IMG/VR virus record: IMGVR_UViG_3300023174_000052
Coordinates: 32,001-96,000 of that record
From: a virus
Strand: one strand, 5' to 3'
DNA: 64,000 nt
This document shows positions 10,654 to 28,961 of the stretch, one piece after another; the stretch's first letter is position 1; each line of letters begins with the position of its first letter. Below the pieces are notes generated by a model that did no database searches, was not told where the DNA came from, and worked only from the letters and a program-made list of their open reading frames with translations. The translations under genes were made by a program, and so were the position numbers.

Positions 10654-13164
10654 TTAGCGAACGACCAACACGATAACGTCGTCGGCGACGAGCGGGAACG
10701 CGAAGGTGATGTTGCCACTGGCTGAGGCGATGTCATAGTCCATTCCTGAACCACCGACCATCAACTGACCGTTGACGTAGACATCGACTTTCGACATCTT
10801 CTTCGCGAGGGTGGCACCAACGAGTTGGGTCCACTTGGTTCCGAAGTCGGCGCTTTCGCCGTCGAAGTGTACGAAGTCAGAAGCGGTGATAGCAGAGCCA
10901 GAAGCGATAGTCGTGCTGACTTCCTTCTTGTACTTGCCACCGGCACCACCAGCGACGAGAGCACCGATGATGGAGACTTCAGCGCCACCGAACGCGGTGG
11001 TTAACTGGGTCCATTCTTCAGCGCTTGACGCGAGCTTGATACCAGCGGTCGGCCATGAAGAACCATCGCGGTAGGAATCCGCGAAGACCATCGCGCCACC
11101 AGCAGACATGCTGAGGTGTGAGGAAGCGGAGACGAATAGAGCGCCACCGGTCTTGAGGAGTGACTGCGCGCCAGCCTTGTCGAGGGTCATGTCGGCGGCG
11201 AAGTATGAAGCGCCGGCAACATCGAGCTGCGCGTCGAGAGTGACATTGCCAACCGCGTGAACGGTCGAAAGCATGTCGACGGAGCCAGTGACGAGCATGG
11301 AGGACTTGAAGTCCGCCGCGCCATCGATGCGGAGGGTGCTGTAGGCGTGGACCGCACCATGTAGGTCGGAAGCGCCCGCGACATCCATCGCGTCGTTGAA
11401 GTCAACCGCACCGTCAGCGCGGAGGGTTGAGTACGCGTAGACTGCGCCATGGAGGTCAGAAGCTAACGCGACGTCTAACGCACCGTTAAGGTCTGCATCA
11501 GAAGCAACCGCGAGGGTTGACTTGAGGTCAGCAGCGCCAGAAACTTCGAGCTGTGCAGCAACGAGGAGCTTGGACTGGTCGAAGGTTAACTTCGCTTCAT
11601 CCTTGATTGAACCATCTTCGTCGACGATGTAGAGGCGTTTTGCAACGTCGCCGTCGATCTTGATGAGTGATGCAGAAACACCAGCGTTCGCGTCAACGAT
11701 ACCATTGAACGCAACGGCACCGGCAACAGTTAGACCAGCCTGGAGGTTGAGGTCGCCCTGGATATCCGCGGCGCCATTGACGTCGAGGTCACCACCGACC
11801 ATCGCGTCGCCAGAGAGGTATAGGTCCTTCCACTGAACCGCAGATGAACCGAGGTCCTTAGAAGCATCGGCTGAAGCGAGGAGGTTCTCAGAGAATACCC
11901 AAGCGTCCTTCGCGTTGTCCCACATGATGGTGTGGTCGGTTGTGCCCTTAAGGGTGATACCACCGCCGTCAGCGGTCGCGTCAGAAGGAGCAGAACCTGA
12001 GATCGCACCGAGCTCGATGTTCTTGTCTTCGACGATGACGGTCTGAACGTTCGCGATGATTTGATCGCCTTGAACGACTAAGTCGCCGGCGATTGAAACG
12101 TTTCCAGAGAACGTGCCATCAACTGCAGATAGGTCACCAGCAGCGGTGACGTCGCCAGTCGCAGCGTCAACAACGAACTTGGTGGTCGCAACCTTGAAGT
12201 CACCACCGACGTCAGCGGCGCCGGACACATCGAGTGTGCCATCGACAGCAAGTTGGTCAGCAGCAAAGGTTAGCTTCGCAGAGTCAACGAGTGCGCCACC
12301 GGTTCCGACGTAAACAACGCGGGTCGCGGTGAGGTCTTCGACGATCGCGGAAGCGAGGGTCGCTTCGCCATCGACTTCGAGAGTGCCGTACGCGTGAACC
12401 GCGCCGTGGAGGTCAGAAGAACCAGAGACGTCTAACGCAGCGTTGAAGTCAACGGCGCCGGCGACTGTGAGGGTGTCCTGAAGGTTGAGAGCGCCTTGGA
12501 TATCAGCCGCGCCATTGACATCGAGGTCGCTAGCAACGTTGAGGTAACCATCGACGTCGAGGGTCATTGAAGAAGAGGTGAACGCGAAACCAGTGATGGT
12601 CTTGAGTTTGCCGTTCTCGTCCGTGAAGACAACTTCCTGAGCGCCGAGCTGGCCGAGGTCGATACCTGCTGAAACGGAGAGAGCGCCGTCAACAGAGAGG
12701 GTCGTGCCGTCCCAGGTAATCTTCGAATCGTTCTTTAGACGACCGATTGAATCGTTGAATACGAGACCGCCTTCAACCGTGAGGTCTTCAACCTTCGCTG
12801 AATCGAGGGTAGCGAGAGCGTCAACTTCGAGGGTCGAGTAAGCGTGGACTGCACCGTGGAGGTCAGACGTTCCCGCGACATCGGCATTGCGATCGATATC
12901 GAGGTCACGGCCACCCTTGATGTCGGATGAAGCAGAGAGAACGCCGATGAACTGCGCAGTATCGTGCACGAACTTACCAGCATCCTGGTTGGTGAACGCT
13001 GCATCACCGTGGATACGCTTGATAGCGCCGGCGAATTGACCGAGGACGCCTTCTAGGTCGATGGCGCTGATATCTGCGGGGGCTGCTTTTGAAGAAGCAA
13101 CGCCGTCAATGGCTGAAAGACTTCCAGTAATAGCGTGAAGTCTCATCTGAGTACGCTGTGCCAT
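10654..13164 (-). CDS. Virion fibre-like structural protein, paralog A
   Basis: G/A/V/D-rich beta repeats, 4 copies of DLHGAV(H/Y)AY, a VEDKNIELG segment and a C-terminal YVNGQLM..DYDI domain. Strong C-ending codon bias. Confidence 0.7.
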   Translation of the reverse strand: MAQRTQMRLHAITGSLSAIDGVASSKAAPADISAIDLEGVLGQFAGAIKRIHGDAAFTNQDAGKFVHDTAQFIGVLSASSDIKGGRDLDIDRNADVAGTSDLHGAVHAYSTLEVDALATLDSAKVEDLTVEGGLVFNDSIGRLKNDSKITWDGTTLSVDGALSVSAGIDLGQLGAQEVVFTDENGKLKTITGFAFTSSSMTLDVDGYLNVASDLDVNGAADIQGALNLQDTLTVAGAVDFNAALDVSGSSDLHGAVHAYGTLEVDGEATLASAIVEDLTATRVVYVGTGGALVDSAKLTFAADQLAVDGTLDVSGAADVGGDFKVATTKFVVDAATGDVTAAGDLSAVDGTFSGNVSIAGDLVVQGDQIIANVQTVIVEDKNIELGAISGSAPSDATADGGGITLKGTTDHTIMWDNAKDAWVFSENLLASADASKDLGSSAVQWKDLYLSGDAMVGGDLDVNGAADIQGDLNLQAGLTVAGAVAFNGIVDANAGVSASLIKIDGDVAKRLYIVDEDGSIKDEAKLTFDQSKLLVAAQLEVSGAADLKSTLAVASDADLNGALDVALASDLHGAVYAYSTLRADGAVDFNDAMDVAGASDLHGAVHAYSTLRIDGAADFKSSMLVTGSVDMLSTVHAVGNVTLDAQLDVAGASYFAADMTLDKAGAQSLLKTGGALFVSASSHLSMSAGGAMVFADSYRDGSSWPTAGIKLASSAEEWTQLTTAFGGAEVSIIGALVAGGAGGKYKKEVSTTIASGSAITASDFVHFDGESADFGTKWTQLVGATLAKKMSKVDVYVNGQLMVGGSGMDYDIASASGNITFAFPLVADDVIVLVVR

Positions 13165-13392: not shown

Positions 13393-16300
13393 TTATCCTA
13401 TCGTGAGTGTGCCGCCTGCAAATGTGAGAGTTGAATTGACTTTAAGGACCTTAGTATCAGAATAATTAGTCGCTTTTAAGTGTCCATTCTGCGTAATAGT
13501 GATTGAACCTGAAGCTATGGTATCGATGACTGGAATTTCGAGAACGCCTTCGTTGACAGAGACGCCACCCGTTAGCGTGTTTAGACCAGATAGCGTAACG
13601 GTTCCTGCTCCGTTCTTATTAAATAGACCAGAACCTGCCATGATGCCACCGTACGTTAATGTCTTTCCATTCTCAATATCGAAAGTAGAACTACCGTCTA
13701 CTCTTATTCCTCTGTTAGAGCTAATCTGGAACGATGCAGAAGCTACGAAACGACTTCCACCAGCGAATAGTAACTTATTCGCAGTCGCAGTTCCTGGCGT
13801 CGAACCAAAGACAGTATCACTCGAGATGCCTGAAGCTACAGTTAACGTACCGGTTACGAAAGTTGAACCTGCGTAGGTATTCGACGCGCCTAACGTGAGT
13901 CGACCTTGCGAACCAGAAACCATTATGGAGCCCGCTCCGGAGATTACACCGTTCTGTACCCAGTCACCTGGTCCCGAGAATCTAATCGCATCGCTATGAG
14001 CAGAACCCGTAATTCCCATAAGACCAGATACAGTCGTAGTTTGACCCGCTGGGGTTACGAGATTTCTTCCGATGCCGACTATTTCGATGTTGTTTGGAAT
14101 GCTGATGGACCCGCTGAACGTTACGCTATTTTGTTCATATGTAGAAGTCTGCCATCTTAGACCGGTAGAGGTCTTCGGTAATGAATTCTGGCCATTGAAA
14201 ATGTAAGAACCGTTATATGCGCCACCCATCATGATGTATAACGCGTCTAATCCCTGGTTATTACCGGCGTATTCTATGGTGTTAAGTTCGCGACCATCCC
14301 AACTTCTGGCAATGAAGTATTCGTTCGTGATAGAACCAGAGATATTTCCCGCGATTGTTAGTTTATTATAAACACCATATCCTGCGTCGTCCTTTTTGAA
14401 TAGTCTCTTTCTGCCTGTATTTGGAACGAGTATGATATTATTCGTTAAAGTTTCATTATTAGAATTTTCTATTATAATGTCAGAGTTTAACGAACCAGAA
14501 TAGACGATTGGTCCTGAACCAAAGGCATTGACTGAGTTGACGTATATTTTTGCTAACGCGACGTTCGCGTTGTGTATTACGCCGCCTGTGTGAGTATTTG
14601 TACCGCTTAGATACGTGTTATAAGCACCGTAAGACTTCTTCACAGGAGCCGTACCCGATAGGTTCGCAGCGATTGAAGCGTATAGATAATTATCTAATAT
14701 CGAAGTATCTAATGCGCTATCAGAGCTTAGCACCGTGGTCGTCGGAGTCGTCGAAAGGTTATGCATTACCTTCACACCCGACGCGCCACCTGCGGAATTT
14801 GTGTTACCAAGGTGTAGAGTACCCGCTGAGTGTGTCACTGGTAGGGTGAAAGTATTATTACCACCCAAAACCAATCGGCCCGTCCCAATCTTCGTAATGC
14901 CGCCGGAGCCTGTGATATTGAGCATCAAAGAACCAGTTAAACCCGCTGCGAGTCCTGAAATCTTCGATATATCGACTGGATAATTCGATGTGAACGTAGC
15001 ACCCTCTAACTGAAGCGTAACTCCCCGAGGTACTATTGGGTCTAATGTAGACGCGTTAATAACTGCCCCTGCAGTTCCACCTATCCTGGAGCTTGAAGGC
15101 GCCGCAAAAATGAGAGAACCGCTGAATCCTGGGCCGTATACTATACCGGAGCTTGCAGCTATGTCTGTAGTTCCTGAGTTAGTAAACGTTCCTGCGCCAG
15201 TGACGTATAGAACGCCTGTGACTTCTAAACGACCCGTGTGTACGACCGCCTTTCCTGATGGTACATCGATACCTCTATCGTATGCGCCAACCATCCATAA
15301 CTTTTGTGGTATGGTCATGTTAGCAGATAGTTTTAGGAGGTTATCTCTTGATGAACTACCTGGCCACGTCGTTATCATGGGAACGTTAGATAACGCGGGT
15401 ATAGAATTAGCAGATGCTATTTCGTATGCGTTAGTTACGTTATATCCTAATAATAAACTTGAAGCCGTAACTTGCTGTAAATTCGCAGAGACAACGTGTC
15501 GAGTATTTAGATTAGCGTTGGGTGATAGTAATAGAATCGTTTGACCTGGCCCACCGCCCGTCCAATTTCCAGTGTACGTAATTGAATGAAATGGTGCTCC
15601 ACCGTTTTGGAATGAAAACGCGTTTGTACCGTTAGTTACCCAAGTAGAGTTTCCAAAATCGACGTCTTGGGAAACTGTCCAAGATGTAGGATTCGTCGCT
15701 GGACCAATGTTATATGTGTTTATTCTATAGCTCTGTTGCTGGTTGAAATATAATCTGCCATTCCCCATTGCCTCAGCATTCAGGAACTGCACATTAGTAC
15801 CAGGAGACGCAGAGTTTCTGGAAGTTAATTTAAAACCACCGGTGCTTATATTATTTCCGCTGACGATAAGATTCGCGTTTGTTTCCGTTCCAGGGTCGAC
15901 TTCTAATATCTCTGAGCCGCTTAGGTTAGAACTGATGGCACCGTATAAAGCTTTATCGAACCAAGAAGTATCTAAATATTGACTCGCGCTCAATGCCGAA
16001 TTGTTCTTTATCTTAATAGTCTTCGTAGAACCGAGCTTGCCACCGTCTATGATGTCGAGCGTACCACCAGATACTTCGACGCCACCCGAGAATGTATTTG
16101 TTCCGCTTAATATTAATTTAGCAGCACCGACTTTCTTGAGTGGTCCTGCTCCTGTTATGTTTACTGATATCGTAGACGTCGCGTTCGTAACTGAAACTTC
16201 GCCGCCACCTGATGGCATGTTCCAAGCAGATGAACCATCAACAGTCCAAGAGTAATAAGGTGATGTCGAATCTCCGAGAGACATAGACGCAACCTGCGTG

Positions 16301-16452
16301 TCTCCACCTGAGATGGTAACAACACCAGCGGCATTCGAAGCGATATCGGTGCCGAGTACAGCGTTGTCACCTGATGAAGGAACTCCAGCGTCCCAATTAC
16401 CTGAACTGTTCCAAGAGCCCGCAGTCGTCTGTGTCCAATTTTTAGTAGCCAT
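13393..16452 (-). CDS. Beta-helix protein with autotransporter passenger-associated (PATR) repeats, putative adhesin / receptor-binding protein
   Basis: Repeats such as GPLKKVGAAKLILSGTNTFSGGVEVSGGTL and GGITKIGTGRLVLGGNNTF. N-terminal W..G.W...GNW motif. No signal peptide or beta-barrel. Confidence 0.8.
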   Translation of the reverse strand: MATKNWTQTTAGSWNSSGNWDAGVPSSGDNAVLGTDIASNAAGVVTISGGDTQVASMSLGDSTSPYYSWTVDGSSAWNMPSGGGEVSVTNATSTISVNITGAGPLKKVGAAKLILSGTNTFSGGVEVSGGTLDIIDGGKLGSTKTIKIKNNSALSASQYLDTSWFDKALYGAISSNLSGSEILEVDPGTETNANLIVSGNNISTGGFKLTSRNSASPGTNVQFLNAEAMGNGRLYFNQQQSYRINTYNIGPATNPTSWTVSQDVDFGNSTWVTNGTNAFSFQNGGAPFHSITYTGNWTGGGPGQTILLLSPNANLNTRHVVSANLQQVTASSLLLGYNVTNAYEIASANSIPALSNVPMITTWPGSSSRDNLLKLSANMTIPQKLWMVGAYDRGIDVPSGKAVVHTGRLEVTGVLYVTGAGTFTNSGTTDIAASSGIVYGPGFSGSLIFAAPSSSRIGGTAGAVINASTLDPIVPRGVTLQLEGATFTSNYPVDISKISGLAAGLTGSLMLNITGSGGITKIGTGRLVLGGNNTFTLPVTHSAGTLHLGNTNSAGGASGVKVMHNLSTTPTTTVLSSDSALDTSILDNYLYASIAANLSGTAPVKKSYGAYNTYLSGTNTHTGGVIHNANVALAKIYVNSVNAFGSGPIVYSGSLNSDIIIENSNNETLTNNIILVPNTGRKRLFKKDDAGYGVYNKLTIAGNISGSITNEYFIARSWDGRELNTIEYAGNNQGLDALYIMMGGAYNGSYIFNGQNSLPKTSTGLRWQTSTYEQNSVTFSGSISIPNNIEIVGIGRNLVTPAGQTTTVSGLMGITGSAHSDAIRFSGPGDWVQNGVISGAGSIMVSGSQGRLTLGASNTYAGSTFVTGTLTVASGISSDTVFGSTPGTATANKLLFAGGSRFVASASFQISSNRGIRVDGSSTFDIENGKTLTYGGIMAGSGLFNKNGAGTVTLSGLNTLTGGVSVNEGVLEIPVIDTIASGSITITQNGHLKATNYSDTKVLKVNSTLTFAGGTLTIG

Positions 16453-16503: not shown

Positions 16504-16827
16504 TTAGAGTACGTTAGCCTTACGAACGACGACTTTGACTTTTAATCCTGTTGAATCGACGTAGGTAGCCTGGACTGCATAGCCTGCGGGTACTTTTATA
16601 TCGATCTTATCATTAAGATTAGCGAGCGCGGGAAGGACAGAACCTCCCCACTTTATTCCTGAACCGGTATCGAATATAGTATATGTCCCAGGTTGTGTAA
16701 TTATCGTCGACTGTAAATTCACAACCGGAGGAGCCGATCCGAGGTCGAGGAAGGAGGCGACCTCGACGGTGCCTCCTGATACTGGCGTAGAATTGGTCTT
16801 ATGTAAAGACCTTCTTATGAGAAGCAT
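16504..16827 (-). CDS. Small adaptor protein, homologous to the N-terminus of 27381-28961
   Basis: Shared motifs G.YTIFDT..GI.W.GS.LPA and GYAV...YVDSTG.KVKV..RKA. Confidence 0.75.
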   Translation of the reverse strand: MLLIRRSLHKTNSTPVSGGTVEVASFLDLGSAPPVVNLQSTIITQPGTYTIFDTGSGIKWGGSVLPALANLNDKIDIKVPAGYAVQATYVDSTGLKVKVVVRKANVL

Positions 16828-16828: not shown

Positions 16829-19297
16829 TTAAGCCTCGTTTCCAGATAGCGTGAATGATATGTCAGCTAATGTGGAATCAGCAGATGATGGCGCGACGAC
16901 TCGGACGATGTTGCCCGCGGCGTAAGATACCGAACCACCAGAGTAGGAGACTGCTCCGACGCTTGAACCAGCTGAGTAGACGATTGTTCCGACATTCGAG
17001 TACGAAATCGTTCCAGCCGTATTAACACCCTTCTGGATGTTGAAGGTCGCAGTCGCTGTCGCAGCAGTATCACAGTAAGCGTATCCGCCGTCGAGTGTAA
17101 CCGCGACGCTGACAGGAGCTCTGAAGATGACCTCGCCAGCTGCAGGCTTACCTGAGACATCACCACCGATATCGACAACTGATGAACCACCACCAGCGCC
17201 ACCACCGCCAGTTGTGTAACCGACGAGAGAAGCTAACGTGACTGGTAAGAAGGCAACAACGAAGTCGTCTTTCTGTAGCGCGAAGTTAAATGAAACCGAT
17301 GTACCGTCAGAAGCGATGTCGTAATCGTAGTTCGACGCGTCGAAAGACTTCGAAACGAGGAGTTGACCGTTTAGGTACAACTTGACGTTCTCGTCGCGAG
17401 CATCTGTGGGAACAGATGTGTAAGAACCAGAGAAGTGCGTTCCGTTGATTTTCTTGAGATCGCTGCCCAAGATCGAAGCGGGTGCTGAGACTGCGCTGTC
17501 GATCTTAAACATGAAGCGTGAATCGCCTGGGAGAGCAGCGGCTGTCGAGATGGCAGATAGTATTGAAACTTCGCCGAAGACAGTCTTAAAACGGTCCCAT
17601 TCTGCTGAGGCATCTGAGAGTTTGATACCGTCGGCATCTGACCAACCTGGAGATTTATTAGAATCCAAGAATTTTAGATCGGCGCCAGCTGCGATATGAA
17701 CGTCAGAAGAAGCAGAAGCGAAGAGCACACCATCGGCCGCTCTTAAATCTACGTTATCTGCATCGAGTGCGAAGTTTCCACCGACGTTGACATCCATGAC
17801 AGAAGCTACGCTAATTAAGAAATCGTCACCAACTTCGGCGACGAGGTCGCGAGCGGCTTCAACAATGATATCAGACGCAGCAGACATGCTAAGGTGCGAC
17901 GATGCAGAGACGAGTAAGTCTCCGCCGGTCTTTCCTACAACCTGCTTGCCTGATTTGTCGAGCGTAACGTCATCTCCGAAAGTAGAAGTGCTGTCGACGT
18001 CGAAAGTCGAAGCGAAGTGCGCCGCGGCCGAAACATCTAATCCACCTGTGACGTAGAGCTTCGAATCGTGGAACATGAGGTTCGCTTCGTCCTTAATCGA
18101 ACCGTCTGTATCGACGACGTAGAGACGCGTCGCAGTGTCGCCGTCAATCTTAACTGAATTTACAGTGATACCAGAGTTAAAGTCAGCAGCTCCATTGAAA
18201 GTAGATGCGCTGGCGACCGTTAGTGTACTCTGGAGGTTTAGAGCTCCTTGAACGTCTGCGGCGCCGTTAACGTCTAACGCTCCATTAACGTTTGCATCCC
18301 CAGAGAGGTATAGGTTCTTCCACTTAACCGAAGAAGAACCGAGGTCTTTAGAAGCGTCGGCTGAAGCGAGAAGGTTCTCTGAGAACACCCACGAATCCGT
18401 GGCATTATCCCACACTATCGTGTGATCTGTATTACCTTTGAGGATGATACCACCGCCGTTCGCAGACACGTCAGAGGGCGATGCAGTCGCGCCTAATTCG
18501 ATGTTTATGTCGTCTACAGTGACGACAGTCGAGTTAACAGTCGTTGTAGTTCCGTTAACGACAAGGTCACCGCCGACTGTTAATTTACCAGTAAACGTAC
18601 CGCTTACTGCAGATATATCTCTCGTTACTGTGAGGTCACGAGCGATAGTAACATCTTTTGAGAACGTCGAACCAGAGACGGTGAGTGTACCAGCAGAGTG
18701 AGAAATTTCTGCATCGACAGCGAGTCGCTTTCCCGTTCCGACGAGAGCTACTTTGCCAGCCGTGAGGTCTTCAACGATCGCAGAAGCTAATGTCGCATCA
18801 CCATCGACATCGAGAGTGCCCTTTGACGCTACATTACCTGTACCGACCGCTACAGTGAATTTGTCTGTACCGACAGTCAGGTCAGCACCGGTGACATCCA
18901 AACCAGCAAGAGCGTCGACGTTACCGACGAGTGTAGAGCCGAGAGCAACGGTTAAAGCACCACCAGCCTGAAGTGATGAAGAACCAGATATAACGCCAGC
19001 GTTTGTAATAGAAACTTTTTGAACGCCTGAACCGTCTTTTAAACTTAAAGAGCCCGAGAATACGGAAGTCGCATTCGAGAAGACACCAGCCTGAGCGTTT
19101 GTGAAGTCGCCCACACCGTGAATTCTTGAGATTGAACCTGCCATCGCAGCCAAGATGTCTTGGAGCGTCGAAGCATTGATACTATTCGAAGCTAATGGGC
19201 TCGAATAATCGCTAACTGCCATGTCAGAGATAGAAGCTATGGAGCCAGAAACAGACTTTAATCTAATTTGACTGCGTGGTGTAATTGCGGTAGCCAT
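16829..19297 (-). CDS. Virion fibre-like structural protein, paralog B, with extra C-terminal domain
   Basis: N-terminal PRSQIRL motif, a segment near-identical to paralog A (WVFSENLLASADASKDLGSS), a YLNGQLL domain and a C-terminal GKPA..EV.F domain. Confidence 0.7.
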   Translation of the reverse strand: MATAITPRSQIRLKSVSGSIASISDMAVSDYSSPLASNSINASTLQDILAAMAGSISRIHGVGDFTNAQAGVFSNATSVFSGSLSLKDGSGVQKVSITNAGVISGSSSLQAGGALTVALGSTLVGNVDALAGLDVTGADLTVGTDKFTVAVGTGNVASKGTLDVDGDATLASAIVEDLTAGKVALVGTGKRLAVDAEISHSAGTLTVSGSTFSKDVTIARDLTVTRDISAVSGTFTGKLTVGGDLVVNGTTTTVNSTVVTVDDINIELGATASPSDVSANGGGIILKGNTDHTIVWDNATDSWVFSENLLASADASKDLGSSSVKWKNLYLSGDANVNGALDVNGAADVQGALNLQSTLTVASASTFNGAADFNSGITVNSVKIDGDTATRLYVVDTDGSIKDEANLMFHDSKLYVTGGLDVSAAAHFASTFDVDSTSTFGDDVTLDKSGKQVVGKTGGDLLVSASSHLSMSAASDIIVEAARDLVAEVGDDFLISVASVMDVNVGGNFALDADNVDLRAADGVLFASASSDVHIAAGADLKFLDSNKSPGWSDADGIKLSDASAEWDRFKTVFGEVSILSAISTAAALPGDSRFMFKIDSAVSAPASILGSDLKKINGTHFSGSYTSVPTDARDENVKLYLNGQLLVSKSFDASNYDYDIASDGTSVSFNFALQKDDFVVAFLPVTLASLVGYTTGGGGAGGGSSVVDIGGDVSGKPAAGEVIFRAPVSVAVTLDGGYAYCDTAATATATFNIQKGVNTAGTISYSNVGTIVYSAGSSVGAVSYSGGSVSYAAGNIVRVVAPSSADSTLADISFTLSGNEA

Positions 19298-19784: not shown

Positions 19785-22700
19785 TTAGATGAAAGATACG
19801 TTACCACCTGATAGAATCAGGTTTAAATTGCCGGTGCCAAATTTATTTACAGAACTTGGAAGAATTACGCTTCCACTGTTTTGAACTGTTATAGAACCCG
19901 ATGGGATAGCGAATGTATTTTCAAATCTTACGGTTCCAGTCAAAACGTTAACAGATCCAGTCACGTTAGTTGATCCGGATAAGATCAATAAGCCACCACC
20001 CTTCATAGTAATATTCGCAGTTCCTGCGACTTGCGAAGGAATAATGAATGTCTTACCGCTTTGGACGTCGAATGTAACGCTACCAGTCAATCCGACGTTT
20101 CTCGTCGTGCTCAATGTCAACGATGCCGAAGACGCTAACGTCGCATTTTGTAAGAACAATCTTGCCTGTGCCGTACCAGGAGTCGCGCCGAAAGAGTTGT
20201 CACTACCATTCGCTGCGATTGTCAAAACTGAGTTAGACGCTGTTATAAATCCTGTGAACAAATTCGAGTTATTAGCGATAGTAAGGCGAGAACTTGGTTC
20301 GATAACGACTGAACCGGCGCCTGCAAGCGTGCCCGACTGGATCCACTCGCCAGGTCCGACGAATGAAGTCGCTGACCACGCTAATGCTGTTCCTGCTCCA
20401 TAACGAGTCAAAGAACCCGTAAGACCATGACGACCCGTATGGATTACAGTATTTCCAGTTGGGACATTTAGCTTGGCGCCGATACCAACTGTTGATCCGT
20501 AGTAAGAAGATTCTAACGAATTAGGAACAGTCATAGAGCCAGAGAAGATCCAGTTCGCAGCGCTTGATGCGGTCGTGTAAGTAGAATAATGATATCCACG
20601 TAGCTGAGAGCCCGAGTTTGGTAGAGACTGTGACCCGACGAAAGTCATGGCAGCGTTATAATAATACGCGGGATAAATGAAACCGTAAAGATTAGAATTA
20701 TTACCCGTGAATTTAATATTAAAAGTACTCAATCCCGAGTTGACCGCGGTCGAGGAATAACCGATGTACGTCGTGTTTATACTTCCTGACTGCGAAGATA
20801 AACGACCGGAGTATATATGTGTCTGTGGTTGTGTGAACGTACCGTTTAGATAGGACAAATATCTAACACCTGTGCCCTTCGCTCCTGTCCAGCTAATATC
20901 ACCAGACATCGTATGAACTTGTACACCTGGCGTTATCATGAAGTATAGATAATTACCCGCTCCTGCGCTATAAGTACCTTTGTTCCTAAATTCTATCGAA
21001 GCAGAACCTATAGTTCTTGAACCCGATACGTAGAGGTAACCAACATTTGTACTATCGATTCTGATGCCTCTTGTGTTATTGATACCTGAGTTTGTCCCTG
21101 TGAGATAGACATACGTGCTAATTGCCGTCGCTGACCCAGAAGCAATATAGTTATCGAATATAAGCTGTCCCGTTCCCGTAACTGGAGAAAGCATGTGATA
21201 CGTAGGCGCTGCGGTATAAGAAGATGAGAAGATACCTGCACCTGATAGGTAGATTCCTCGAGTAGCCGGAATAACGTGAGATGTAGCGTTAGGATAGATC
21301 AACGTCGCAGAGTTATTTAGAGTGATGCTTGCTGTCGAAAGAGTCGCAGGTACTGGGCCCGCAGAAGTCTCTGCCGCAAGGACAACAGACCCTGAAGAAA
21401 CTGTAAATAGGCCCTTGAAATTTGTCGTAGAAAGATCGGGTAAGTAAACTCGACCGCCACCCGTTTTTGTGAATGAAGCAGAAGCTATCGAAGAACTTAC
21501 TGACGAGCTGACATATAAGAACGCGCCAACCGAAGTATCGACGTTCAAGTTACCGTCAGTTTGCAAGCGTCTGTTGACGCTCAAGAAAGTTGTTCCAGAT
21601 ACTACCAAGTTCGAACCGGTTAATTGAATCGATCGAACCGCGGTAGCTTGATCCGCGCTTGTGTCTACACCCGATAGAATGAGCGACCCACTCGTTGAAT
21701 AAATCGAATTTTGTGTAGAGAGACCCACTAACGAGAGATTACCACCTCCCGTCTTTACGAGCGCAGATGTTCCTGTGACAGGTGCGAGGATAGATAACGT
21801 CTTATTCTGATCTACTGATATAGTCGAGTCAGCGTTAAGAACGATGCCTCTATTTTGGTTTATCGAGAACGTATCTGTAATTCTCCACGAAGAACCACTT
21901 AACACGAAGTAAATCGGATTTAATACTGACGGTGTGGCACCAAAACTGCTATCAGCAGAGGCCGTGACGATGTTCGAAGAACCTGATTTCACGTCGACGG
22001 TACCTTCTAATACGTTGAAAGTTACGCCGGATGAAGTTACATATTCGAACGTACCAGGTCCACGTTTATTAATCGTGGCAGATGTTCCCGCTACGTAAGA
22101 ACCAAGCGCTAATGAAACTATAGAACCAGACGAAATGTTTAGGTTTATAGTTCCCGTCATGTAGAGTTTGGAAGGATTCAATATTAAACTTGAAGAAATA
22201 TTTAGAGTGCTACCATCGACTAAGTTTATTTGTCCTGTGCCAAGAGTACCTGATGTGAGTCCGGCACCGATTGTCAAAGTTCCTGAGTTGATTAGTCCAC
22301 CTGCGAAGGTATTCGAAGCATTCGCGAAGGTCACACAAGCACCAGGTTCAATGACCAAACCACCTGCACCAGCTAAAGTGCCGGACTGGATCCATTCGCC
22401 TGGACCAACGAACGAAGTCGCTGACCACGCGAAATTAGCGCCAGAGCCTTGTCTGGTCAATGAACCTGTGAGACCGTGGCGACCTGTGTGGATTACAGTA
22501 TTTCCAGACGGGACATTTAATTTAGCGCCGACCGTGCCGTTGTTCGATGATTCTATAAGGTTCGGTACTGTCATTGAACCGGAGAAAATCCAGTTTGCAG
22601 AGTTTGAAGCCGTCGTGTAAGTATTAACATGAACGGCTCTTAGCATAGCGCTTGGGTGTGGAAGCGACTGTGAACCCACGAACGTTACGGATATGTTACC

Positions 22701-25700
22701 TGAATCACCGACCCAAATCGGACCATATAGACCAGAGTTATTACCAGTTAATACTACGTTGATTAATCGATCGAAACCAGAAGTTAGACCGCCGATAGAA
22801 CCAAGCGAGAAATTTGATGTACTATCTACTTGATTCGTTAATCGTCCTGAGAATATATATGTCTGTGGTGTCGTTAACGCGCCGCGCATATAAGCGATGT
22901 GTTTATGGCTTGTTGCGCCACCGGATGGACCCGTAAACTTGATGTCGTTTATGATTGTATCTGTTGTTTTTGCAGGATCCTGGAAGAATCCTAAATACGA
23001 CGTTCCAACTAATCCTGACGCCAAGCCCTTATTTCTGAATTCGACCGTACCAGAACCCATCGTTCTGGAGCCCGATGTTGTTAACGTCGCGAAACCTGTC
23101 GCATCGATTCTTATACCACCGGCATTATTAAGCGCAGAATTTGCTCCTATGAGATAGACAGCCGTGTCAACAACGGTTGCAGAACCAGACGCTACACCGT
23201 TATTAAAGATAATTTGTCCTGAGCCCGTAACCGTGCTGTCGACGTAATAATTCGGAGCTGGCGCCGCGGCGATCGAAGACGAGAAAATACCATCGCCCTG
23301 TAAATTGATTCCTCGAGTACCAGAAATTATAAATGTCTGGACGTTATTGGTGTAAATATCGGAAATACCGAGCGGGAACGTAATGTTCGAGGGATCGACA
23401 GACGCGGGAAGAGCTCCGAAGTCTGCGTCGCCATAGACAGCTCTCGAAGTCCAACCAGCTACGGAACCAGTGTTGAGATAAGGTACACGTGGTGTAGTTA
23501 ATGTACCACCACCGATTATTCTCAAGCTCGCTCCAGTCCATCCCAAATCCAATCCTTGCGGGACTGTTAACGTCATTCCCGTCGGGATGTCGAAAGTAGC
23601 AACGCCAGCGTCAATTTGTAGTCTGCGAGTGTTACCGAAGGAGAACGAAGATGAAACTGCCAACGTCGCGTTGTTTAGATAGAGCGATGTTGTTGGAGAT
23701 CCTGGCGTCGCACCGAAAGAGTTCGTTCCACCGTTCGCTGCGATAGTAACGACAGAGTTAGACGCCGATATAGGACCTGTTGATATATTAGAGTTATTCG
23801 CTAACGTGAGTCTTGAGCCAGGTTCGACGACCAACGCACCAGCACCAGCTAACGTACCAGATTGAATCCATTCACCTGTACCGACGAACGAAGTCGCGTT
23901 CCATGCGATGACAGGCGACGTACCTTGACGTATTAGAGTACCTGTGAGACCGTGTCGACCCGTTGCTATAATGGTTGAACCAGCGGCGACGTTCATCTTC
24001 GCGCCAACACCATTGGCGCCATAATTCGAAGACTCTATTTGGTTAGCGACAGTCATAGAACCGGAGAAGATCCAGTTTGCAGAATTCGACGCAGTCGTAT
24101 AAGCGCTAGCATAATATCCAATCATTTGCGCTATTGAATTCGGAAGAGACGACGACCCAATAAAATGAATAGAATTATTACCACCGTAACTCGGAAATAT
24201 TTGACCATATAATCCGCTATTATCACCTGTTAACTTTACAGTCAAAAGTCTATCTAAACCGGTCGAAGCATTATTATAACCTAAATACACAATAGATGTA
24301 TTGCCAGGTTGCGTAATCAAGCGACCTGAGTAGATGTGCGTCTGAGGTTGCGTGACGTTGCCGATCATGCGAGAGATTGACTTGGCACCTGTACCTGTCG
24401 CACCTGTCCAGCTAACGTCACCAGACATCGTGTGAATCTGCGTCGACGGATCCTGAAGGAAATAAAAATCACTACCCCCCGCACCGACGTATATTCCTTT
24501 ATTTCGAAATTCTATTGAAGCAGAACCGATGTTGCGAGAACCAGAAGAGTAAAGATAACCATAGCTCGTACTATCGATTCTGATTCCACCAGAATTGCTT
24601 AAATAAGAGTAGGTTCCAGTGAGGTAAACGAAGGTGCTAACTGCCGTCACCGACCCAGACGAGATATAGTTATCGAATACGATCTGTCCCGTTCCCATAA
24701 CTGGCGAGTTAACATAGAAAGTAGGAGATCCTATATAAGAACTCGAGATAACGCCAGATCCAGAAAGGTATATACCGCGGTTAGCAGGGATAGCGTGCCC
24801 CCCTAAAATCGGGTTAGTATAGATCAACGTCGCAGAGTTATTTAGAACAATGCTAGCTGTCGAAAGAGTCGCGGGTACAGGACCTGTAGAAGTCTCTGTA
24901 GTGAGGACGACAGACCCTGATGAAACGGTGAACGAGCGATTAAAATTCGTCGTAGAAAGATCAGGTAAGTAAACTCGACCGGCGCCCGTTTTTATGAATG
25001 AAGCAGAAGCTATCGACGAGCTTAAAGAAGAACTAACATATAAGAACGCGCCCGCGTCGACGTCGATGCTCAAATCGCCATTCGTTGTTATGTCTCTATT
25101 CGATCCGATGAAAGTCGTTCCGGATATTATTAGATTTGAACCCGACAATTCGAACGATCTGCGAACACCAACGTCTGAAGCCGTGGCTCCCGATAAAATA
25201 AGATTTCCACTTGTGTGTTTTATCGCAGTAATAAAGCTATTATTGAGTTGTAAATTACCACTTCCAGTTTTGATGACTGGATACGTTCCATTGACGGGTG
25301 CTCCAATAGCGAAAGTCGTAGAACTGTTTATAGCGATATTCCAATCTTTTAATAGTAAAAACCCTCTGTTCGCGTTCGAAGTAAACGAATTCGTGATCAA
25401 CCAATTCGAACCACTTAGAGGGAAGAAAAGAGAATCGTAAGAAGCAGGAATAGAACCGAAGTCAGAATCTGCCGAAGCAGTTAGTACAGACGTTAACGCA
25501 GAAACTCCTGTCGCGACACCAGCTACTTGATTAACGTTAACGTTTGGAGAGACTACATATCTAAACGTACCTAAACCGATCTTATTAATCGTTGTAGCAT
25601 TGCCCTGCGCCTGGACTAAAGCAGTTAGCGTCGTCGCATTTAAAACGTCAACCGTAACAGTTCCAGTAGATACGAGTGTATTCGAAATATTCGCGACGCT

Positions 25701-27353
25701 CGCAGAAGACGCAAGCGTACTACCTGCGGCTAACACTACAGTACCGAATCCGAGCGCCTGCGTTGCTGTACCGCTTCCTGTTCCGATTGTCAAAGTACCA
25801 GAGTTTACCAATCCACCTGCAAATGTGTTAGAATTATTTGCGATTGTAAGTCTGGCGATGGGCTCGACGACTAACGCACCGGCACCCGTTAACGTACCAG
25901 ATTGAACCCATTCGCCAGGACCGACGATTGAAGTTGCCGACCACGCAAGATTCGCACCATTGATCCAGCGATATAGAGGACCCGAAAGTGTGTGTATACC
26001 TGTAGCCGTGACTATACTACCAGACGAAACGTTTAATTTCGTGCCGATGCCGGAGGAGCTGGCGAGATATGCAGTATTAAGCGCGTTTGGAACTGTCATA
26101 GAACCAGAAAAGATCCAGTTCGCAGAGTTTGAAGCTGTTGCATAAGTAGAGGGGTAATATCCAATCATTTGCGCATTCGAGTTCGGAAGAGAAGACGACC
26201 CGATGAAATGAATAGAAGCGTTGGAATAATAACCAGGATATATCACGCCATATAAAGAGTTGTTATTACCAGATAGTTTAACTGTCAAAAGTCTATCGAA
26301 GCCACTGGCTGCATTATAACCCAAATACACAGGAGACGTATTACCAGGTTGCGTAATCAAGCGACCTGTATAGACATGCGTCTGTGGTTGGGTAATTGTT
26401 CCCGCGAGACTAGAGATGATTTTCGCGCCTGTACCTGCCGTGCCTGTCCAACTAACGTCTCCAGACATCGTGTGAATCTGCGTCGACGAATCCTGGAGGA
26501 AATATAAATAGCTGCCCGCTCCTCCGGTGCTAGTACCTTTGTTCCTAAATTCTATTGAAGCAGAACCTATGTTTCTGGACCCTGAAGTATAGAGATAGTT
26601 ATAAAATGTCGAATCTAATCGTATACCACCTGAATTGCTTAAATAAGAGTAGGTTCCAGTGAGGTAGACGACTGTGTTAAGCCCCGAAGCTGACCCAGAC
26701 GCGATATAGTTATCAAATATAATCTGTCCTGTTCCCGTAACTGGCGAGTGAACATAGAACGTAGGCGCGCCAGCGTAAGAAGACGAGATAACGCCAGAGC
26801 CAGAAAGGTATATACCACGATTAGCAGGAATAACGTGAGATATAACGTTAGGATAGATTAGCGTCGCCAAGTTATTGAAGATGATATTCGACGCGCTAAG
26901 ACTTGTTGGGACTGCGCCCAAAGACGTATCAGCAGCGATTCTCAAAGCACCGCTTAGGATTGCAGTACCACCTGTGTACGTGTTAGCAGTACCACTCAGG
27001 GCCAAGTAGTTACTATAAGAAGACGCCGTGACTATTAAAGCAGAGTTTCCTGAGATCGTGTTCCAAATGAACGACGGCGCGTAATCGACGTATACTGACG
27101 TACCCGTACCGAAGGTGACGATATTCGCAGAACCAGTAAGCTGCCAGGGATAAAAAGTCGCTGTGGGATCGGCGAATTTAATCGCACCCGGTTGCGCGTT
27201 TGTAGTCGATAACGTGACTACACCAGCGGCGTCAGAGGCAATATTCGTATTAAAATAGACATCATCACCTGCTACTGGAAGTGTTGATAAGTTCCAGTTA
27301 GTCGTAGTATTCCACGCACCTGCTACTGTTGGTACCCAAGTCTTAGTCGCCAT
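19785..27353 (-). CDS. Giant (2522 aa) PATR beta-helix adhesin-like protein with four internal modules
   Basis: Same MATK.W...AG.WN...NW N-terminus as 13393-16452, PATR repeats, and four copies of a module containing EFRNKG...PQT...SANWIFSGSMTV...GEW.QSGTL.GAG. Confidence 0.8.
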   Translation of the reverse strand: MATKTWVPTVAGAWNTTTNWNLSTLPVAGDDVYFNTNIASDAAGVVTLSTTNAQPGAIKFADPTATFYPWQLTGSANIVTFGTGTSVYVDYAPSFIWNTISGNSALIVTASSYSNYLALSGTANTYTGGTAILSGALRIAADTSLGAVPTSLSASNIIFNNLATLIYPNVISHVIPANRGIYLSGSGVISSSYAGAPTFYVHSPVTGTGQIIFDNYIASGSASGLNTVVYLTGTYSYLSNSGGIRLDSTFYNYLYTSGSRNIGSASIEFRNKGTSTGGAGSYLYFLQDSSTQIHTMSGDVSWTGTAGTGAKIISSLAGTITQPQTHVYTGRLITQPGNTSPVYLGYNAASGFDRLLTVKLSGNNNSLYGVIYPGYYSNASIHFIGSSSLPNSNAQMIGYYPSTYATASNSANWIFSGSMTVPNALNTAYLASSSGIGTKLNVSSGSIVTATGIHTLSGPLYRWINGANLAWSATSIVGPGEWVQSGTLTGAGALVVEPIARLTIANNSNTFAGGLVNSGTLTIGTGSGTATQALGFGTVVLAAGSTLASSASVANISNTLVSTGTVTVDVLNATTLTALVQAQGNATTINKIGLGTFRYVVSPNVNVNQVAGVATGVSALTSVLTASADSDFGSIPASYDSLFFPLSGSNWLITNSFTSNANRGFLLLKDWNIAINSSTTFAIGAPVNGTYPVIKTGSGNLQLNNSFITAIKHTSGNLILSGATASDVGVRRSFELSGSNLIISGTTFIGSNRDITTNGDLSIDVDAGAFLYVSSSLSSSIASASFIKTGAGRVYLPDLSTTNFNRSFTVSSGSVVLTTETSTGPVPATLSTASIVLNNSATLIYTNPILGGHAIPANRGIYLSGSGVISSSYIGSPTFYVNSPVMGTGQIVFDNYISSGSVTAVSTFVYLTGTYSYLSNSGGIRIDSTSYGYLYSSGSRNIGSASIEFRNKGIYVGAGGSDFYFLQDPSTQIHTMSGDVSWTGATGTGAKSISRMIGNVTQPQTHIYSGRLITQPGNTSIVYLGYNNASTGLDRLLTVKLTGDNSGLYGQIFPSYGGNNSIHFIGSSSLPNSIAQMIGYYASAYTTASNSANWIFSGSMTVANQIESSNYGANGVGAKMNVAAGSTIIATGRHGLTGTLIRQGTSPVIAWNATSFVGTGEWIQSGTLAGAGALVVEPGSRLTLANNSNISTGPISASNSVVTIAANGGTNSFGATPGSPTTSLYLNNATLAVSSSFSFGNTRRLQIDAGVATFDIPTGMTLTVPQGLDLGWTGASLRIIGGGTLTTPRVPYLNTGSVAGWTSRAVYGDADFGALPASVDPSNITFPLGISDIYTNNVQTFIISGTRGINLQGDGIFSSSIAAAPAPNYYVDSTVTGSGQIIFNNGVASGSATVVDTAVYLIGANSALNNAGGIRIDATGFATLTTSGSRTMGSGTVEFRNKGLASGLVGTSYLGFFQDPAKTTDTIINDIKFTGPSGGATSHKHIAYMRGALTTPQTYIFSGRLTNQVDSTSNFSLGSIGGLTSGFDRLINVVLTGNNSGLYGPIWVGDSGNISVTFVGSQSLPHPSAMLRAVHVNTYTTASNSANWIFSGSMTVPNLIESSNNGTVGAKLNVPSGNTVIHTGRHGLTGSLTRQGSGANFAWSATSFVGPGEWIQSGTLAGAGGLVIEPGACVTFANASNTFAGGLINSGTLTIGAGLTSGTLGTGQINLVDGSTLNISSSLILNPSKLYMTGTINLNISSGSIVSLALGSYVAGTSATINKRGPGTFEYVTSSGVTFNVLEGTVDVKSGSSNIVTASADSSFGATPSVLNPIYFVLSGSSWRITDTFSINQNRGIVLNADSTISVDQNKTLSILAPVTGTSALVKTGGGNLSLVGLSTQNSIYSTSGSLILSGVDTSADQATAVRSIQLTGSNLVVSGTTFLSVNRRLQTDGNLNVDTSVGAFLYVSSSVSSSIASASFTKTGGGRVYLPDLSTTNFKGLFTVSSGSVVLAAETSAGPVPATLSTASITLNNSATLIYPNATSHVIPATRGIYLSGAGIFSSSYTAAPTYHMLSPVTGTGQLIFDNYIASGSATAISTYVYLTGTNSGINNTRGIRIDSTNVGYLYVSGSRTIGSASIEFRNKGTYSAGAGNYLYFMITPGVQVHTMSGDISWTGAKGTGVRYLSYLNGTFTQPQTHIYSGRLSSQSGSINTTYIGYSSTAVNSGLSTFNIKFTGNNSNLYGFIYPAYYYNAAMTFVGSQSLPNSGSQLRGYHYSTYTTASSAANWIFSGSMTVPNSLESSYYGSTVGIGAKLNVPTGNTVIHTGRHGLTGSLTRYGAGTALAWSATSFVGPGEWIQSGTLAGAGSVVIEPSSRLTIANNSNLFTGFITASNSVLTIAANGSDNSFGATPGTAQARLFLQNATLASSASLTLSTTRNVGLTGSVTFDVQSGKTFIIPSQVAGTANITMKGGGLLILSGSTNVTGSVNVLTGTVRFENTFAIPSGSITVQNSGSVILPSSVNKFGTGNLNLILSGGNVSFI

Positions 27354-27380: not shown

Positions 27381-28961
27381 CTATCTAGCTACGATGAATC
27401 CAATTTTAGGACGATAGGTAACAGTCCCAGTCCCTGCTGTCGCTAGTGTATATCCTGATGTATCGGCTCTTGCATAATACATATTTCCATTCAAAGAATA
27501 TTCAAGAGACGCGCCTCCTGAAACGAATGCCGTATTCGAGAAGACCACTTTCGTCAATAGATTAGAAGTTCCGTCCCAAGTAAAAGAATTCGTAAAATTA
27601 AATTTTGGAGTTATTAACGAGGTGTAAGTTGCGACGTCTGGTACGAAGGGGCCAACTCTTTCGTAAACCGATGTGTACCCAGATGTGACAGACGATGTCA
27701 TCGTACTACCTTGCGAAGTATGTTGCATTCCGATTACGAAGTTTTTCCATCCACCCGACAAAGAAGAGACCCATGGCGAAGCGGCGTTTAAACAGATGTA
27801 CATACCTGTTATTCTATCGTTGGCATTAATGCCAGCTGCCGATAATTCCGCTGCCGTGAATACGAACTCGGTTGCACATGACCAATAGTATGAATCAAGC
27901 GGCCCAACGTCGGTCGAGGAACCAGCTACGGTTACAGTATTAACTGGTACTGCAGCAACTATGTCATTTATGTAAATCGTAGTACTCGCGAGAGTGTCAC
28001 CAGTATAAGAGCCTTGTTTTAAACTAAGTCTAAAACTTTCCTGACCCTCTGTCGCACCGTCAAAATTGATAGACTTTTCTAAATAGCCTAATTTAGTAGT
28101 AGCGTTTACGGCTATAGTTCCAGACAATTGATTATCAACGAAATCAGCTGCTGTGATACTTCCTGTTAAGCTTTCAATTACGTAATAATAATTCGCGTCG
28201 AGTGTTCCGAGTCCCATGTTGACGAACGACGCGGTTAAATATAGCGTGTTACCTTCTGATATGTTAGAAGAATTGACTGTTATAACAGGAGATTTTGAAA
28301 CGTCTTGAACAGTGATTACAGGAGTCGAACCTACTATTTTATTAAAAGAACTATCGTTGCTAATTTTAAACTGAAATAACTCGTCGCCTTCTGTGTTTAG
28401 GTCCAATCTAAACTTTTTAGAGAATGAACCTGTTCCATTGACGAGTAAAAAGCTACCCGTCGACGTGCGATCTTCGAAATCTGCGCCATTTAATACAGAC
28501 GCCGAATAATAAAGCGTCCTAGCCTGTAATTCGGTAGACGCGTCGTAGATTATAATCGTATTTCCTTCTCTTGTAGTATTTCCAGCAGAAGACATTACGC
28601 TGTCAAACGTTAATGTATGCGAATCTTCGGTCTCGGTAGCTTTTCTAAGTCCTACTTTAACTTTTTTACCAGTAGAATCTACATACGGTTCGGTTATGAC
28701 AGCGTATCCTGAGTTTGGTACGATGATCAATTTATTTGTCAGAGCGCTTCCAGCAGGTAAGTACGAACCGTTCCAAGTTATTCCAAGTGTAGTATCAAAT
28801 ATTGTATAAATTCCCTCCTGACTCGCGAAATCCCTGGGGAGATTGACGCGTGTCAAAGCGTTGTTTAACGCAAGAGCGCCAGTGACTTGAAAAACGCTAC
28901 TTGATATTTCGTTTTGATAATTTGAAACGGTACTGTAAATACCTTTGAAAACGCTCTGCAT
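27381..28961 (-). CDS. Adaptor domain, two Calx-beta-like domains and a C-terminal beta-sandwich domain
   Basis: Start reassigned to ATG 28961 (TAA-T-ATG junction). Two EGNT...DF...D..TEG.E.F repeats, then a FTAAELSAAG...F.WDGTSNL...RP.I.F domain. Confidence 0.7.
   Translation of the reverse strand: MQSVFKGIYSTVSNYQNEISSSVFQVTGALALNNALTRVNLPRDFASQEGIYTIFDTTLGITWNGSYLPAGSALTNKLIIVPNSGYAVITEPYVDSTGKKVKVGLRKATETEDSHTLTFDSVMSSAGNTTREGNTIIIYDASTELQARTLYYSASVLNGADFEDRTSTGSFLLVNGTGSFSKKFRLDLNTEGDELFQFKISNDSSFNKIVGSTPVITVQDVSKSPVITVNSSNISEGNTLYLTASFVNMGLGTLDANYYYVIESLTGSITAADFVDNQLSGTIAVNATTKLGYLEKSINFDGATEGQESFRLSLKQGSYTGDTLASTTIYINDIVAAVPVNTVTVAGSSTDVGPLDSYYWSCATEFVFTAAELSAAGINANDRITGMYICLNAASPWVSSLSGGWKNFVIGMQHTSQGSTMTSSVTSGYTSVYERVGPFVPDVATYTSLITPKFNFTNSFTWDGTSNLLTKVVFSNTAFVSGGASLEYSLNGNMYYARADTSGYTLATAGTGTVTYRPKIGFIVAR

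What the first reader, a model, noticed from the sequence alone, without database searches (positions are those of the whole stretch)
16504..16827. Adaptor looks like the detached C-terminal cap of the beta-helix, encoded upstream of it (split, permuted gene)
Seen: both PATR proteins end abruptly on a helix rung (STLTFAGGTLTIG; GNLNLILSGGNVSFI). The 107-aa adaptor and the homologous N-terminus of 27381-28961 read V...L.L.....VNL......G.YTIF...P.GY.....VD..G..V.V. From recall, this resembles the autochaperone-like cap that normally follows such a rung within one polypeptide in bacterial PATR proteins. Inference: trans-complementation of a beta-helix by a separately encoded cap, serving as folding nucleus and plug-in joint. 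In one cassette the cap carries extra Calx-beta and binding domains.
Basis: inference. Interest (0 to 1): 0.72.

Follow-up and report, generated by a model that had tools for sequence, protein, structure and literature searches.

The report
Detached beta-helix cap on phage fibre
An uncultured large phage encodes, just upstream of each of its two autotransporter-like beta-helix proteins, a small domain that looks like the end-cap such helices normally carry in one piece and is predicted to plug onto the helix end, which would be a natural two-piece version of a known folding cap.

Summary
The 107-aa protein (16504-16827, minus strand) is 48% identical (E 1e-19) to the first ~110 residues of the protein at 27381-28961. 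Each gene sits directly upstream of a PATR beta-helix protein that stops on a helix rung.

- **Fold:** the AlphaFold model (pLDDT 78) matches almost only the C-terminal autochaperone regions of autotransporter passengers (IcsA, Ssp, pertactin, IgA1 protease, Hbp). Z is only 3-5, but the match starts coincide with published autochaperone boundaries.
- **Binding:** a complex model stacks adaptor residues 17-42 on the last 18 residues of the helix protein (ipSAE 0.87, best control 0.00).
- **Gene order:** fibre with extra knob, then adaptor, then PATR helix recurs in four loci.
- **Sequence:** nothing ties the adaptor to bacterial caps. Pfam, HMMER over 1.84 billion proteins, hhalign and an in-silico concatenation were all negative. 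The domain is only ever stand-alone or N-terminal.

So "works like a trans cap and docking plug" is likely. "Is a detached, permuted piece of the same gene" is unproven. The Calx-beta label for the longer paralogue was not confirmed. All evidence is computational. Earlier first-reader notes on this same genome had already flagged the three-gene module.

The parts
16504..16827 (-). Stand-alone adaptor or cap protein, 107 aa (P0001). Residues 1-16 are disordered, 17-42 form one beta-helix-like rung, and 43-107 form long beta-hairpins.
13393..16452 (-). PATR beta-helix protein, 1019 aa (P0003). It has no signal peptide and no barrel, and it ends on a rung.
13396..13449 (-). Last 18 residues (1002-1019) of P0003. 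This is the rung that contacts the adaptor in the complex model.
   Evidence: chain 1 residues 303-320 of the 320-residue piece
16829..19297 (-). Fibre protein, 822 aa (P0004). Its stop is one base before the adaptor's ATG (TAA-T-ATG).
16832..17185 (-). Extra C-terminal knob domain of P0004 (about residues 705-822), after a glycine linker. It is present only in fibres that are followed by an adaptor and a PATR gene.
27381..28961 (-). Long paralogue, 526 aa from the ATG at 28961: adaptor domain plus about 416 further residues of beta-rich domains of unconfirmed family.
28632..28961 (-). Adaptor domain (residues 1-110) of the long paralogue.
19785..27353 (-). Second PATR-like beta-helix protein, 2522 aa (P0005). 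It has internal long repeats, and its C-terminus is homologous to that of P0003.
28963..32367 (-). Fibre protein, 1134 aa, with the same C-terminal 286-residue region including the knob (45% identical to P0004).
10654..13164 (-). Fibre paralogue, 836 aa, without knob. It is not followed by an adaptor or PATR gene and serves as a natural negative control for the module.

Best explanation
The 107-aa protein is a separately encoded end-cap and docking module for the C-terminal end of the PATR beta-helix protein made from the next gene. Its residues 17-42 form one more helix rung that stacks in register on the last rung of the helix protein. The rest forms a beta-hairpin/sandwich cap of the kind seen in autotransporter autochaperone (AC) domains. 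It would shield the otherwise open helix end, and by analogy with AC domains it may also nucleate folding. The same domain heads larger proteins (526 to 1980 aa). It therefore also serves as a plug that fixes other domains to a helix end. Together with the knob-bearing fibre encoded just upstream, it builds a composite virion appendage. Shown: paralogy, conserved gene order, and that the helix proteins end on a rung. Predicted by models: the fold and the interface. Inferred: the role in folding, retention in the virion, and which end of the assembly faces the fibre.
For: - **Paralogy and pairing:** two adaptor-domain genes exist in the 175-kb record, 48% identical to each other. Each lies directly upstream of one of the only two PATR proteins.
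- **Conserved order:** fibre knob, then adaptor, then PATR protein (starting MATKTW or MAILNW) also occurs in two independent metagenome contigs, L006 and L007. The fibre paralogue without a knob lacks both partners.
- **Fold:** the AF2 model has pLDDT 78 and pTM 0.71. In an all-against-48,161-chain search, 9 of the top 11 hits are the C-terminal ends of autotransporter passengers. These include IcsA AC 3ml3 (Z 5.1, rmsd 2.9 A, 85 aligned), Ssp (4.8), VacA p55 (4.5), pertactin (4.2), IgA1 protease (4.1), Pet, Ag43 and Hbp (repeated).
- **Boundaries:** the matches start at IcsA 606, pertactin 444, IgA1P 864 and Hbp 947. Published AC boundaries are D606, D444, D865 and N948 (PMC5767081).
- **Atlas leads:** PATR, autotransporter and PEP-CTERM proteins by structure; Pertactin and AC_1 by features.
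- **Complex model:** ipSAE 0.87 in three runs, best of 3 controls 0.00. That mark was reached by 58 of 80 solved complexes and 2 of 110 mismatched pairs. Runs agree in 100% of contacts and partner pLDDT is at least 86. Helix residues 1002-1019 touch adaptor residues 17-42, with successive strands paired in the same order (1009-1011 with 26-28; 1016-1018 with 35-37), as for a continued parallel helix.
- **Precedent:** AC domains supplied in trans rescue BrkA, Ssp, EspP and Pet (PMC5767081).
Against: - No sequence similarity to any AC, Pertactin or PATR model, or to bacterial PATR tails. The best hhalign probability is 17.8% and is out of the expected register.
- Fold Z-scores of 5.3 or less are below the level at which the tool says a match is more than a common arrangement.
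- The complex pass may reflect the model's memory of contiguous passenger structures, and the controls were not beta-helix proteins.
- My own shallow alignments were used, so the calibration holds only roughly.
- Only one of the two pairs was modelled, and cross-pair specificity was not tested.
- In every homologue the domain is N-terminal or stand-alone, which fits a generic N-terminal anchor equally well.
Confidence: 0.58

Rival explanations
1. The domain is a generic N-terminal virion-anchor module. It attaches whatever follows it (nothing, or 400-1900 aa of Ig-like domains) to the knob of the preceding fibre. The PATR helix is attached independently. The predicted stacking on the helix end would then be an artefact of beta-edge complementarity.
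For: In all homologues the domain is at the extreme N-terminus or stands alone, as phage fibre anchor domains usually are. Its gene is translationally coupled to the knob-bearing fibre gene by TAA-T-ATG. The knob co-occurs with it. There is no sequence link to bacterial caps.
Against: This does not explain why a PATR gene always follows, or why those proteins end on an open rung. The complex score was 0.87 against 0.00 for unrelated partners, with a sharply defined interface at the very last helix residues. Fold matches are specific to passenger C-terminal ends.
Confidence: 0.2
2. The adaptor is a true evolutionary fragment of a bacterial PATR or autotransporter gene. The phage captured a passenger gene, and its autochaperone segment became a separate gene moved upstream (split and permuted).
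For: AC-like fold with matching domain boundaries. Domain length is about 107 aa, against about 110-aa ACs. The helix part is clearly homologous to bacterial PATR proteins from N-terminal start to last rung. Many bacterial PATR proteins carry a further cap-like module after the last repeat.
Against: No detectable sequence homology by HMMER over 1.84 billion representatives, by hhalign or by concatenation. No contiguous form was found, neither among longer proteins nor in 185,579 species genomes (pattern-based). Convergence on a rung-plus-hairpin cap is plausible for a small beta domain.
Confidence: 0.3
3. The adaptor is only a transient assembly chaperone for the helix protein, like phage tail-fibre assembly proteins, and is absent from the finished virion.
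For: It is small, adjacent and dedicated to one partner. ACs act as folding templates.
Against: The same domain is fused to very large beta-rich extensions (526-1980 aa), which makes sense for a retained structural joint and not for a released chaperone. There are no PHROG chaperone hits. It is encoded upstream, not downstream as Tfa or gp38 genes usually are (from general knowledge of phage genomes).
Confidence: 0.1

Closest known systems
Autochaperone (AC) domain of classical (type Va) autotransporters, e.g. IcsA D606-L720 (PDB 3ML3), pertactin D444-L556, Hbp N948-L1056; Pfam AC_1 PF18883 / Pertactin PF03212
   Same: Size is about 110 aa. The predicted fold is beta-helix rung(s) ending in a beta-hairpin/sandwich cap, and structural matches begin at the published AC boundaries. 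It sits, in the model, on the C-terminal end of a PATR-type beta-helix. ACs are known to work when supplied in trans (PMC5767081).
   Different: It is a separate polypeptide encoded upstream of the helix gene. It matches no AC or Pertactin HMM. There is no linker helix, beta-barrel or signal peptide. It belongs to a phage structural gene cluster. It also serves as the N-terminal module of large multi-domain proteins.
Phage tail-fibre tip proteins that bind the distal end of a fibre in trans (T2-type gp38 adhesin; Mu/P2 Tfa assembly proteins)
   Same: A small, separately encoded protein dedicated to the end of one fibre protein. A variant carries extra, probably ligand-binding, domains.
   Different: No sequence or PHROG relationship. 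The partner is a single-chain PATR beta-helix, not a trimeric fibre. The gene lies upstream of its partner. The comparison rests on general knowledge and was not tested structurally here.
C-terminal intramolecular chaperone domains of trimeric phage tailspikes and fibres (K1F endosialidase, phi29 gp12, P22 tailspike; PMC3357383)
   Same: A C-terminal element that assists folding of a beta-helical phage appendage.
   Different: Those act in cis on trimers and are often cleaved off. This one is a separate gene product acting on what looks like a monomeric autotransporter-type helix.
Bacterial PATR (PF12951) proteins of Verrucomicrobiota and Planctomycetota with PEP-CTERM or T5SS ends
   Same: The phage helix proteins share the N-terminal start motif and the repeats. 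The bacterial proteins continue after the last repeat with a cap-like module.
   Different: The phage proteins stop at the last rung. The adaptor shows no significant similarity to any of the bacterial tail families.

Membership tests
T5aSS autochaperone domain (Pfam AC_1 PF18883 / Pertactin PF03212) | Sequence match to the family HMM | tested here: not met
   hmmscan of P0001, the P0002 N-terminus and P0009 against Pfam at E up to 10 gave no AC_1 or Pertactin hit. A profile search against PDB sequences found no autotransporter.
T5aSS autochaperone domain (Pfam AC_1 PF18883 / Pertactin PF03212) | Fold superimposable on solved AC domains (rung plus beta-sandwich cap) | tested here: inconclusive
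   VIA-align gave IcsA AC Z 5.1 (rmsd 2.9 A, 85 aligned), pertactin Z 4.2 and IgA1P Z 4.1, with starts matching published AC boundaries. Z is below 8, and Foldseek gave E above 0.1.
T5aSS autochaperone domain (Pfam AC_1 PF18883 / Pertactin PF03212) | Lies at the C-terminal end of the passenger in the same polypeptide, followed by a linker and a beta-barrel | tested here: not met
   It is a separate ORF upstream of the helix gene. No PF03797 barrel is present in either PATR protein. Homologues are always stand-alone or N-terminal.
T5aSS autochaperone domain (Pfam AC_1 PF18883 / Pertactin PF03212) | Required for folding or secretion of the beta-helical passenger | not testable with these tools
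   Needs co-expression and folding assays.
PATR repeat (PF12951) | HMM match above the gathering score | tested here: not met
   This refers to the adaptor itself, which has no PATR hit. The partner P0003 does meet it (52.9 bits against a cut-off of 27). P0005 is below the cut-off (19.4 bits).
Phage tail-fibre assembly or tip proteins (Tfa / gp38-like PHROGs) | Sequence match to a PHROG of that function | tested here: not met
   P0001 and P0002 match no PHROG family at E up to 0.01. There was no tblastn hit in 50,697 phage records.

The most novel reading that the evidence does not exclude
This is a naturally split beta-helix. A phage took an autotransporter-type PATR passenger, separated its autochaperone cap into its own gene, and turned the rung-to-rung joint into a specific plug-and-socket. 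The joint lets different tip modules (a bare cap, or a cap fused to 400-1900 aa of binding domains) be mounted on helix shafts. It would be the first natural example of trans autochaperone complementation and a new principle for building modular phage appendages.
Probability: 0.3. Interest if true: 0.8.

Novelty: new variant of a known kind. Interest (0 to 1): 0.62.

Why it matters
Autochaperone domains have been shown to work in trans only in engineered constructs. A natural two-gene version would show that the helix end and its cap can evolve as a specific protein-protein joint. It would also give a simple system (a 107-aa cap plus a helix end) for studying vectorial beta-helix folding. For phage biology it would describe a so far unreported appendage: a fibre with a knob, a cap-like connector and a single-chain autotransporter-type helix, with exchangeable tip domains. 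It could also offer an orthogonal connector pair for protein engineering, because the two pairs in this genome differ in their predicted contact segments (adaptor residues 17-42 and the last rung of each helix protein); only the P0001/P0003 interface was modelled. No paper in the searched library links PATR proteins or autochaperones to phage fibres.

Tried and rejected
- **Pfam and PHROGs on the adaptor:** nothing.
- **tblastn and megablast against 50,697 phage records:** nothing for the adaptor, the region or P0003.
- **Word-indexed protein search:** only 3 close stand-alone homologues plus one probably chimeric sequence. No longer forms were found.
- **Exhaustive profile search:** beyond the true family, the remaining hits were LRR, Big_3 and DUF11 repeat proteins, judged false positives.
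- **IMG/VR scans with two alignments:** no relatives.
- **GTDB species genomes:** none (pattern-based, so only fairly close relatives could appear).
- **Adaptor HMM against 104 PATR proteins (103 bacterial plus the phage orthologue P0024), and hhalign against 61 PEP-CTERM tails singly and in clusters:** E above 0.7, and probability at most 17.8% against at most 1% for reversed controls. This is not significant, and the best alignment is not in the expected register.
- **In-silico concatenation of helix end and adaptor against 103 bacterial PATR proteins:** alignments sometimes run past the junction but gain no score. For pair 1, 14 targets ran past it, against 1-7 in shuffles. For pair 2, 1 target did, against 0-4.
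- **Foldseek against PDB and BFVD:** no hit with E at or below 0.001.
- **AF2 model of the 416-residue remainder of the long paralogue:** pLDDT 50, so it was not searched. The Calx-beta claim is therefore left open.
- **Promoter and terminator scan:** counts equal to shuffles, so uninformative.
- **The look-up of encoding contigs:** The 290-kb contig carrying the P0003 orthologue P0024 and the contigs of P0012-P0018 could not be inspected.

Full report
**Context.** The window is bases 32001-96000 of a 175.6-kb IMG/VR virus record, about 52% complete by CheckV. It carries a DNA polymerase, a DnaB-type helicase, ribonucleotide reductase and a tape-measure-like protein. It is therefore a large uncultured tailed phage.

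All genes around the finding are on the minus strand. In transcription order they are:
- fibre 28963-32367 (1134 aa)
- long paralogue 27381-28961
- PATR-like helix 19785-27353 (2522 aa)
- a 91-aa ORF
- fibre 16829-19297 (822 aa)
- adaptor 16504-16827 (107 aa)
- PATR helix 13393-16452 (1019 aa)
- a third fibre 10654-13164

**Observation.** The adaptor and residues 35-125 of the long ORF are 48% identical (E 1e-19). The quoted motif is real. P0003 has PATR repeats above Pfam's cut-off, while P0005 is below it. Both helix proteins start like bacterial PATR proteins but lack a signal peptide and a barrel. Both end on the quoted rung strings. Their C-terminal ~210 residues are 38% identical. An orthologue from another contig ends at the same residue. 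The adaptor ATG follows the fibre stop by one base (TAA-T-ATG), and there is a Shine-Dalgarno-like GAGG in the fibre's last codons.

**Distribution.** An exhaustive profile search of 1.84 billion representatives found the domain in only two forms. One is a stand-alone protein of 101-107 aa. The other is the first ~110 residues of longer proteins of 430, 532 and 1980 aa. It is never found after a PATR helix. The other hits are repeat proteins (LRR, Big_3, DUF11) and are false positives.

Two metagenome contigs keep the same order. A fibre C-terminus with the same extra knob domain comes first. An adaptor of 107-109 aa follows. Last comes a PATR protein starting MATKTW or MAILNW.

Within the window, the two fibres followed by adaptor and helix share a C-terminal 286-residue region including the knob (45% identity). 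The third fibre stops before the glycine linker and knob and has no adaptor or PATR gene after it. Earlier first-reader notes on this genome had pointed to this three-gene module. I checked it myself. The record holds exactly two adaptor domains and two PATR proteins.

**Fold.** AlphaFold2 with a five-row alignment gave pLDDT 78 and pTM 0.71. Residues 1-16 are disordered. Three short strands follow at 21-37, then longer hairpins at 47-60 and 76-103.

Foldseek found nothing significant in PDB or BFVD. VIA-align against 48,161 representative chains gave only 24 chains with Z of 2 or more. Nine of the top eleven are the C-terminal ends of autotransporter passengers:

| Chain | Z | Aligned range in chain |
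|---|---|---|
| IcsA autochaperone 3ml3 | 5.1 (rmsd 2.9 A, 85 aligned) | 606-740 |
| Ssp | 4.8 | 512-642 |
| VacA p55 | 4.5 | 636-797 |
| Pertactin | 4.2 | 444-572 |
| IgA1 protease | 4.1 | 864-989 |
| Pet | 3.4 | 813-941 |
| Ag43 | 3.2 | 416-562 |
| Hbp | 2.9 | 947-1078 |

A second IcsA entry (5ke1_B, Z 3.2, 606-740) is the ninth of these chains.

A second look at Foldseek's candidates repeated the picture. The published autochaperone boundaries are IcsA D606-L720, pertactin D444-L556, IgA1 D865-L977 and Hbp N948-L1056 (PMC5767081). Four of the matches therefore begin within one residue of the defined domain start.

The Z values alone are too low to claim a shared fold, as the tool's own notes say. 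The argument rests on how specific the hit list is and on the matching boundaries. The ESM Atlas gave concordant leads.

**Binding.** The last 320 residues of P0003 (seven-row alignment A3) and P0001 (alignment A2) were folded together.
- Score: ipSAE 0.87 in all three runs, best of three controls 0.00.
- Calibration: that mark was reached by 58 of 80 solved complexes and 2 of 110 mismatched pairs.
- Consistency: the runs agree in 100% of contacts, and partner pLDDT is at least 86.
- Interface: helix residues 303-320 of the piece (1002-1019 of the protein) plus a few residues from 284-300, against adaptor residues 17-42, 51-52 and 56.
- Geometry: the tightest pairs put helix 1009-1011 over adaptor 26-28, and helix 1016-1018 over adaptor 35-37. 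Successive strands of the last rung thus lie on successive strands of the adaptor's rung, as in a continued parallel helix.

Several caveats apply. My own alignments were used, so the calibration holds only roughly. A split of a fold that is solved as one chain can pass from memory. That shows likeness to contiguous passengers, not that this pair binds. The controls were unrelated proteins, not other beta-helices. The second pair and the cross pairs were not tested.

**Sequence relationship to bacterial caps.** None was detectable. Many bacterial PATR proteins retrieved with the P0003 end (105 hits) do continue after the last repeat with a cap-like module before a PEP-CTERM anchor or a barrel. 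The following tests found no link to the adaptor:
- The adaptor HMM scores E above 0.7 against them.
- hhalign against single tails and tail clusters peaks at 17.8% probability, out of the expected register.
- Joining the helix end to the adaptor in silico adds no score to alignments with the bacterial proteins.

**Reading.** The best-supported mechanism is a trans-acting cap that completes and seals the open C-terminal end of the PATR helix. The same domain heads proteins of up to 1980 aa, so it is more likely a retained structural joint than a released chaperone. Whether it also contacts the fibre knob, and which end of the helix faces the virion, could not be tested.

A fold like an AC and a predicted position like an AC support 'works like an autochaperone in trans'. 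AC rescue in trans is established experimentally for BrkA, Ssp, EspP and Pet (PMC5767081). Membership of the AC family fails on sequence and on architecture. Descent from a split bacterial gene remains a minority possibility.

**The long paralogue.** The 416 residues after its adaptor domain have no Pfam or PDB sequence match. The AF2 model has pLDDT 50. Only weak Atlas leads exist, to CARDB/Calx-beta-like and GEVED-like beta-sandwich domains.

**Literature.** No paper in the searched library connects PATR proteins or autochaperones with phage fibres. Cis-acting C-terminal chaperone domains of trimeric tailspikes are known (PMC3357383).

**Verdict.** This is a new variant of a known kind, resting so far on computation only.

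Noticed in passing
window 19488-19763 (-): A 91-aa ORF sits between the 2522-aa PATR-like gene and the next fibre gene. It has only marginal PHROG hits of unknown function (E about 0.005). The other cassette has no counterpart.
   Followed up: no
window 19785-27353 (-): By eye, the 2522-aa helix protein contains about four long internal repeats of roughly 600-650 residues. For example, the segment around '...IPANRGIYLSGSGVISSSY...' recurs. It looks like a several-fold tandem expansion of a P0003-like unit.
   Followed up: no
window 41271-45058 (-): The ribonucleotide reductase large subunit is split over two ORFs (403 aa matching PHROG 84 positions 209-495; 578 aa matching 488-973), with a 265-aa ORF (43000-43797) between them. 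The ORF ends next to the split show weak matches to unrelated helicase, terminase and head PHROGs, as intein halves do. This may be a split or endonuclease-interrupted intein.
   Followed up: no
L006 2-871 (+): The orthologous fibre in a metagenome contig carries a collagen-like G-X-Y run in place of the plain glycine linker before the knob domain.
   Followed up: no
protein P0010 (ENA contig of 738 bases): This 102-aa protein has an N-terminal half that looks like an RmlD-type reductase (PF04321) and a C-terminal half 77% identical to the adaptor. It is most likely an assembly chimera, and I left it out of the profiles.
   Followed up: partly
window 10654-13164 and 16829-19297 (-): The fibre proteins hit Pfam Bactofilin (E 1e-8) and PHROG 'virion structural protein' families through their repetitive beta-rich shafts.
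   Followed up: no
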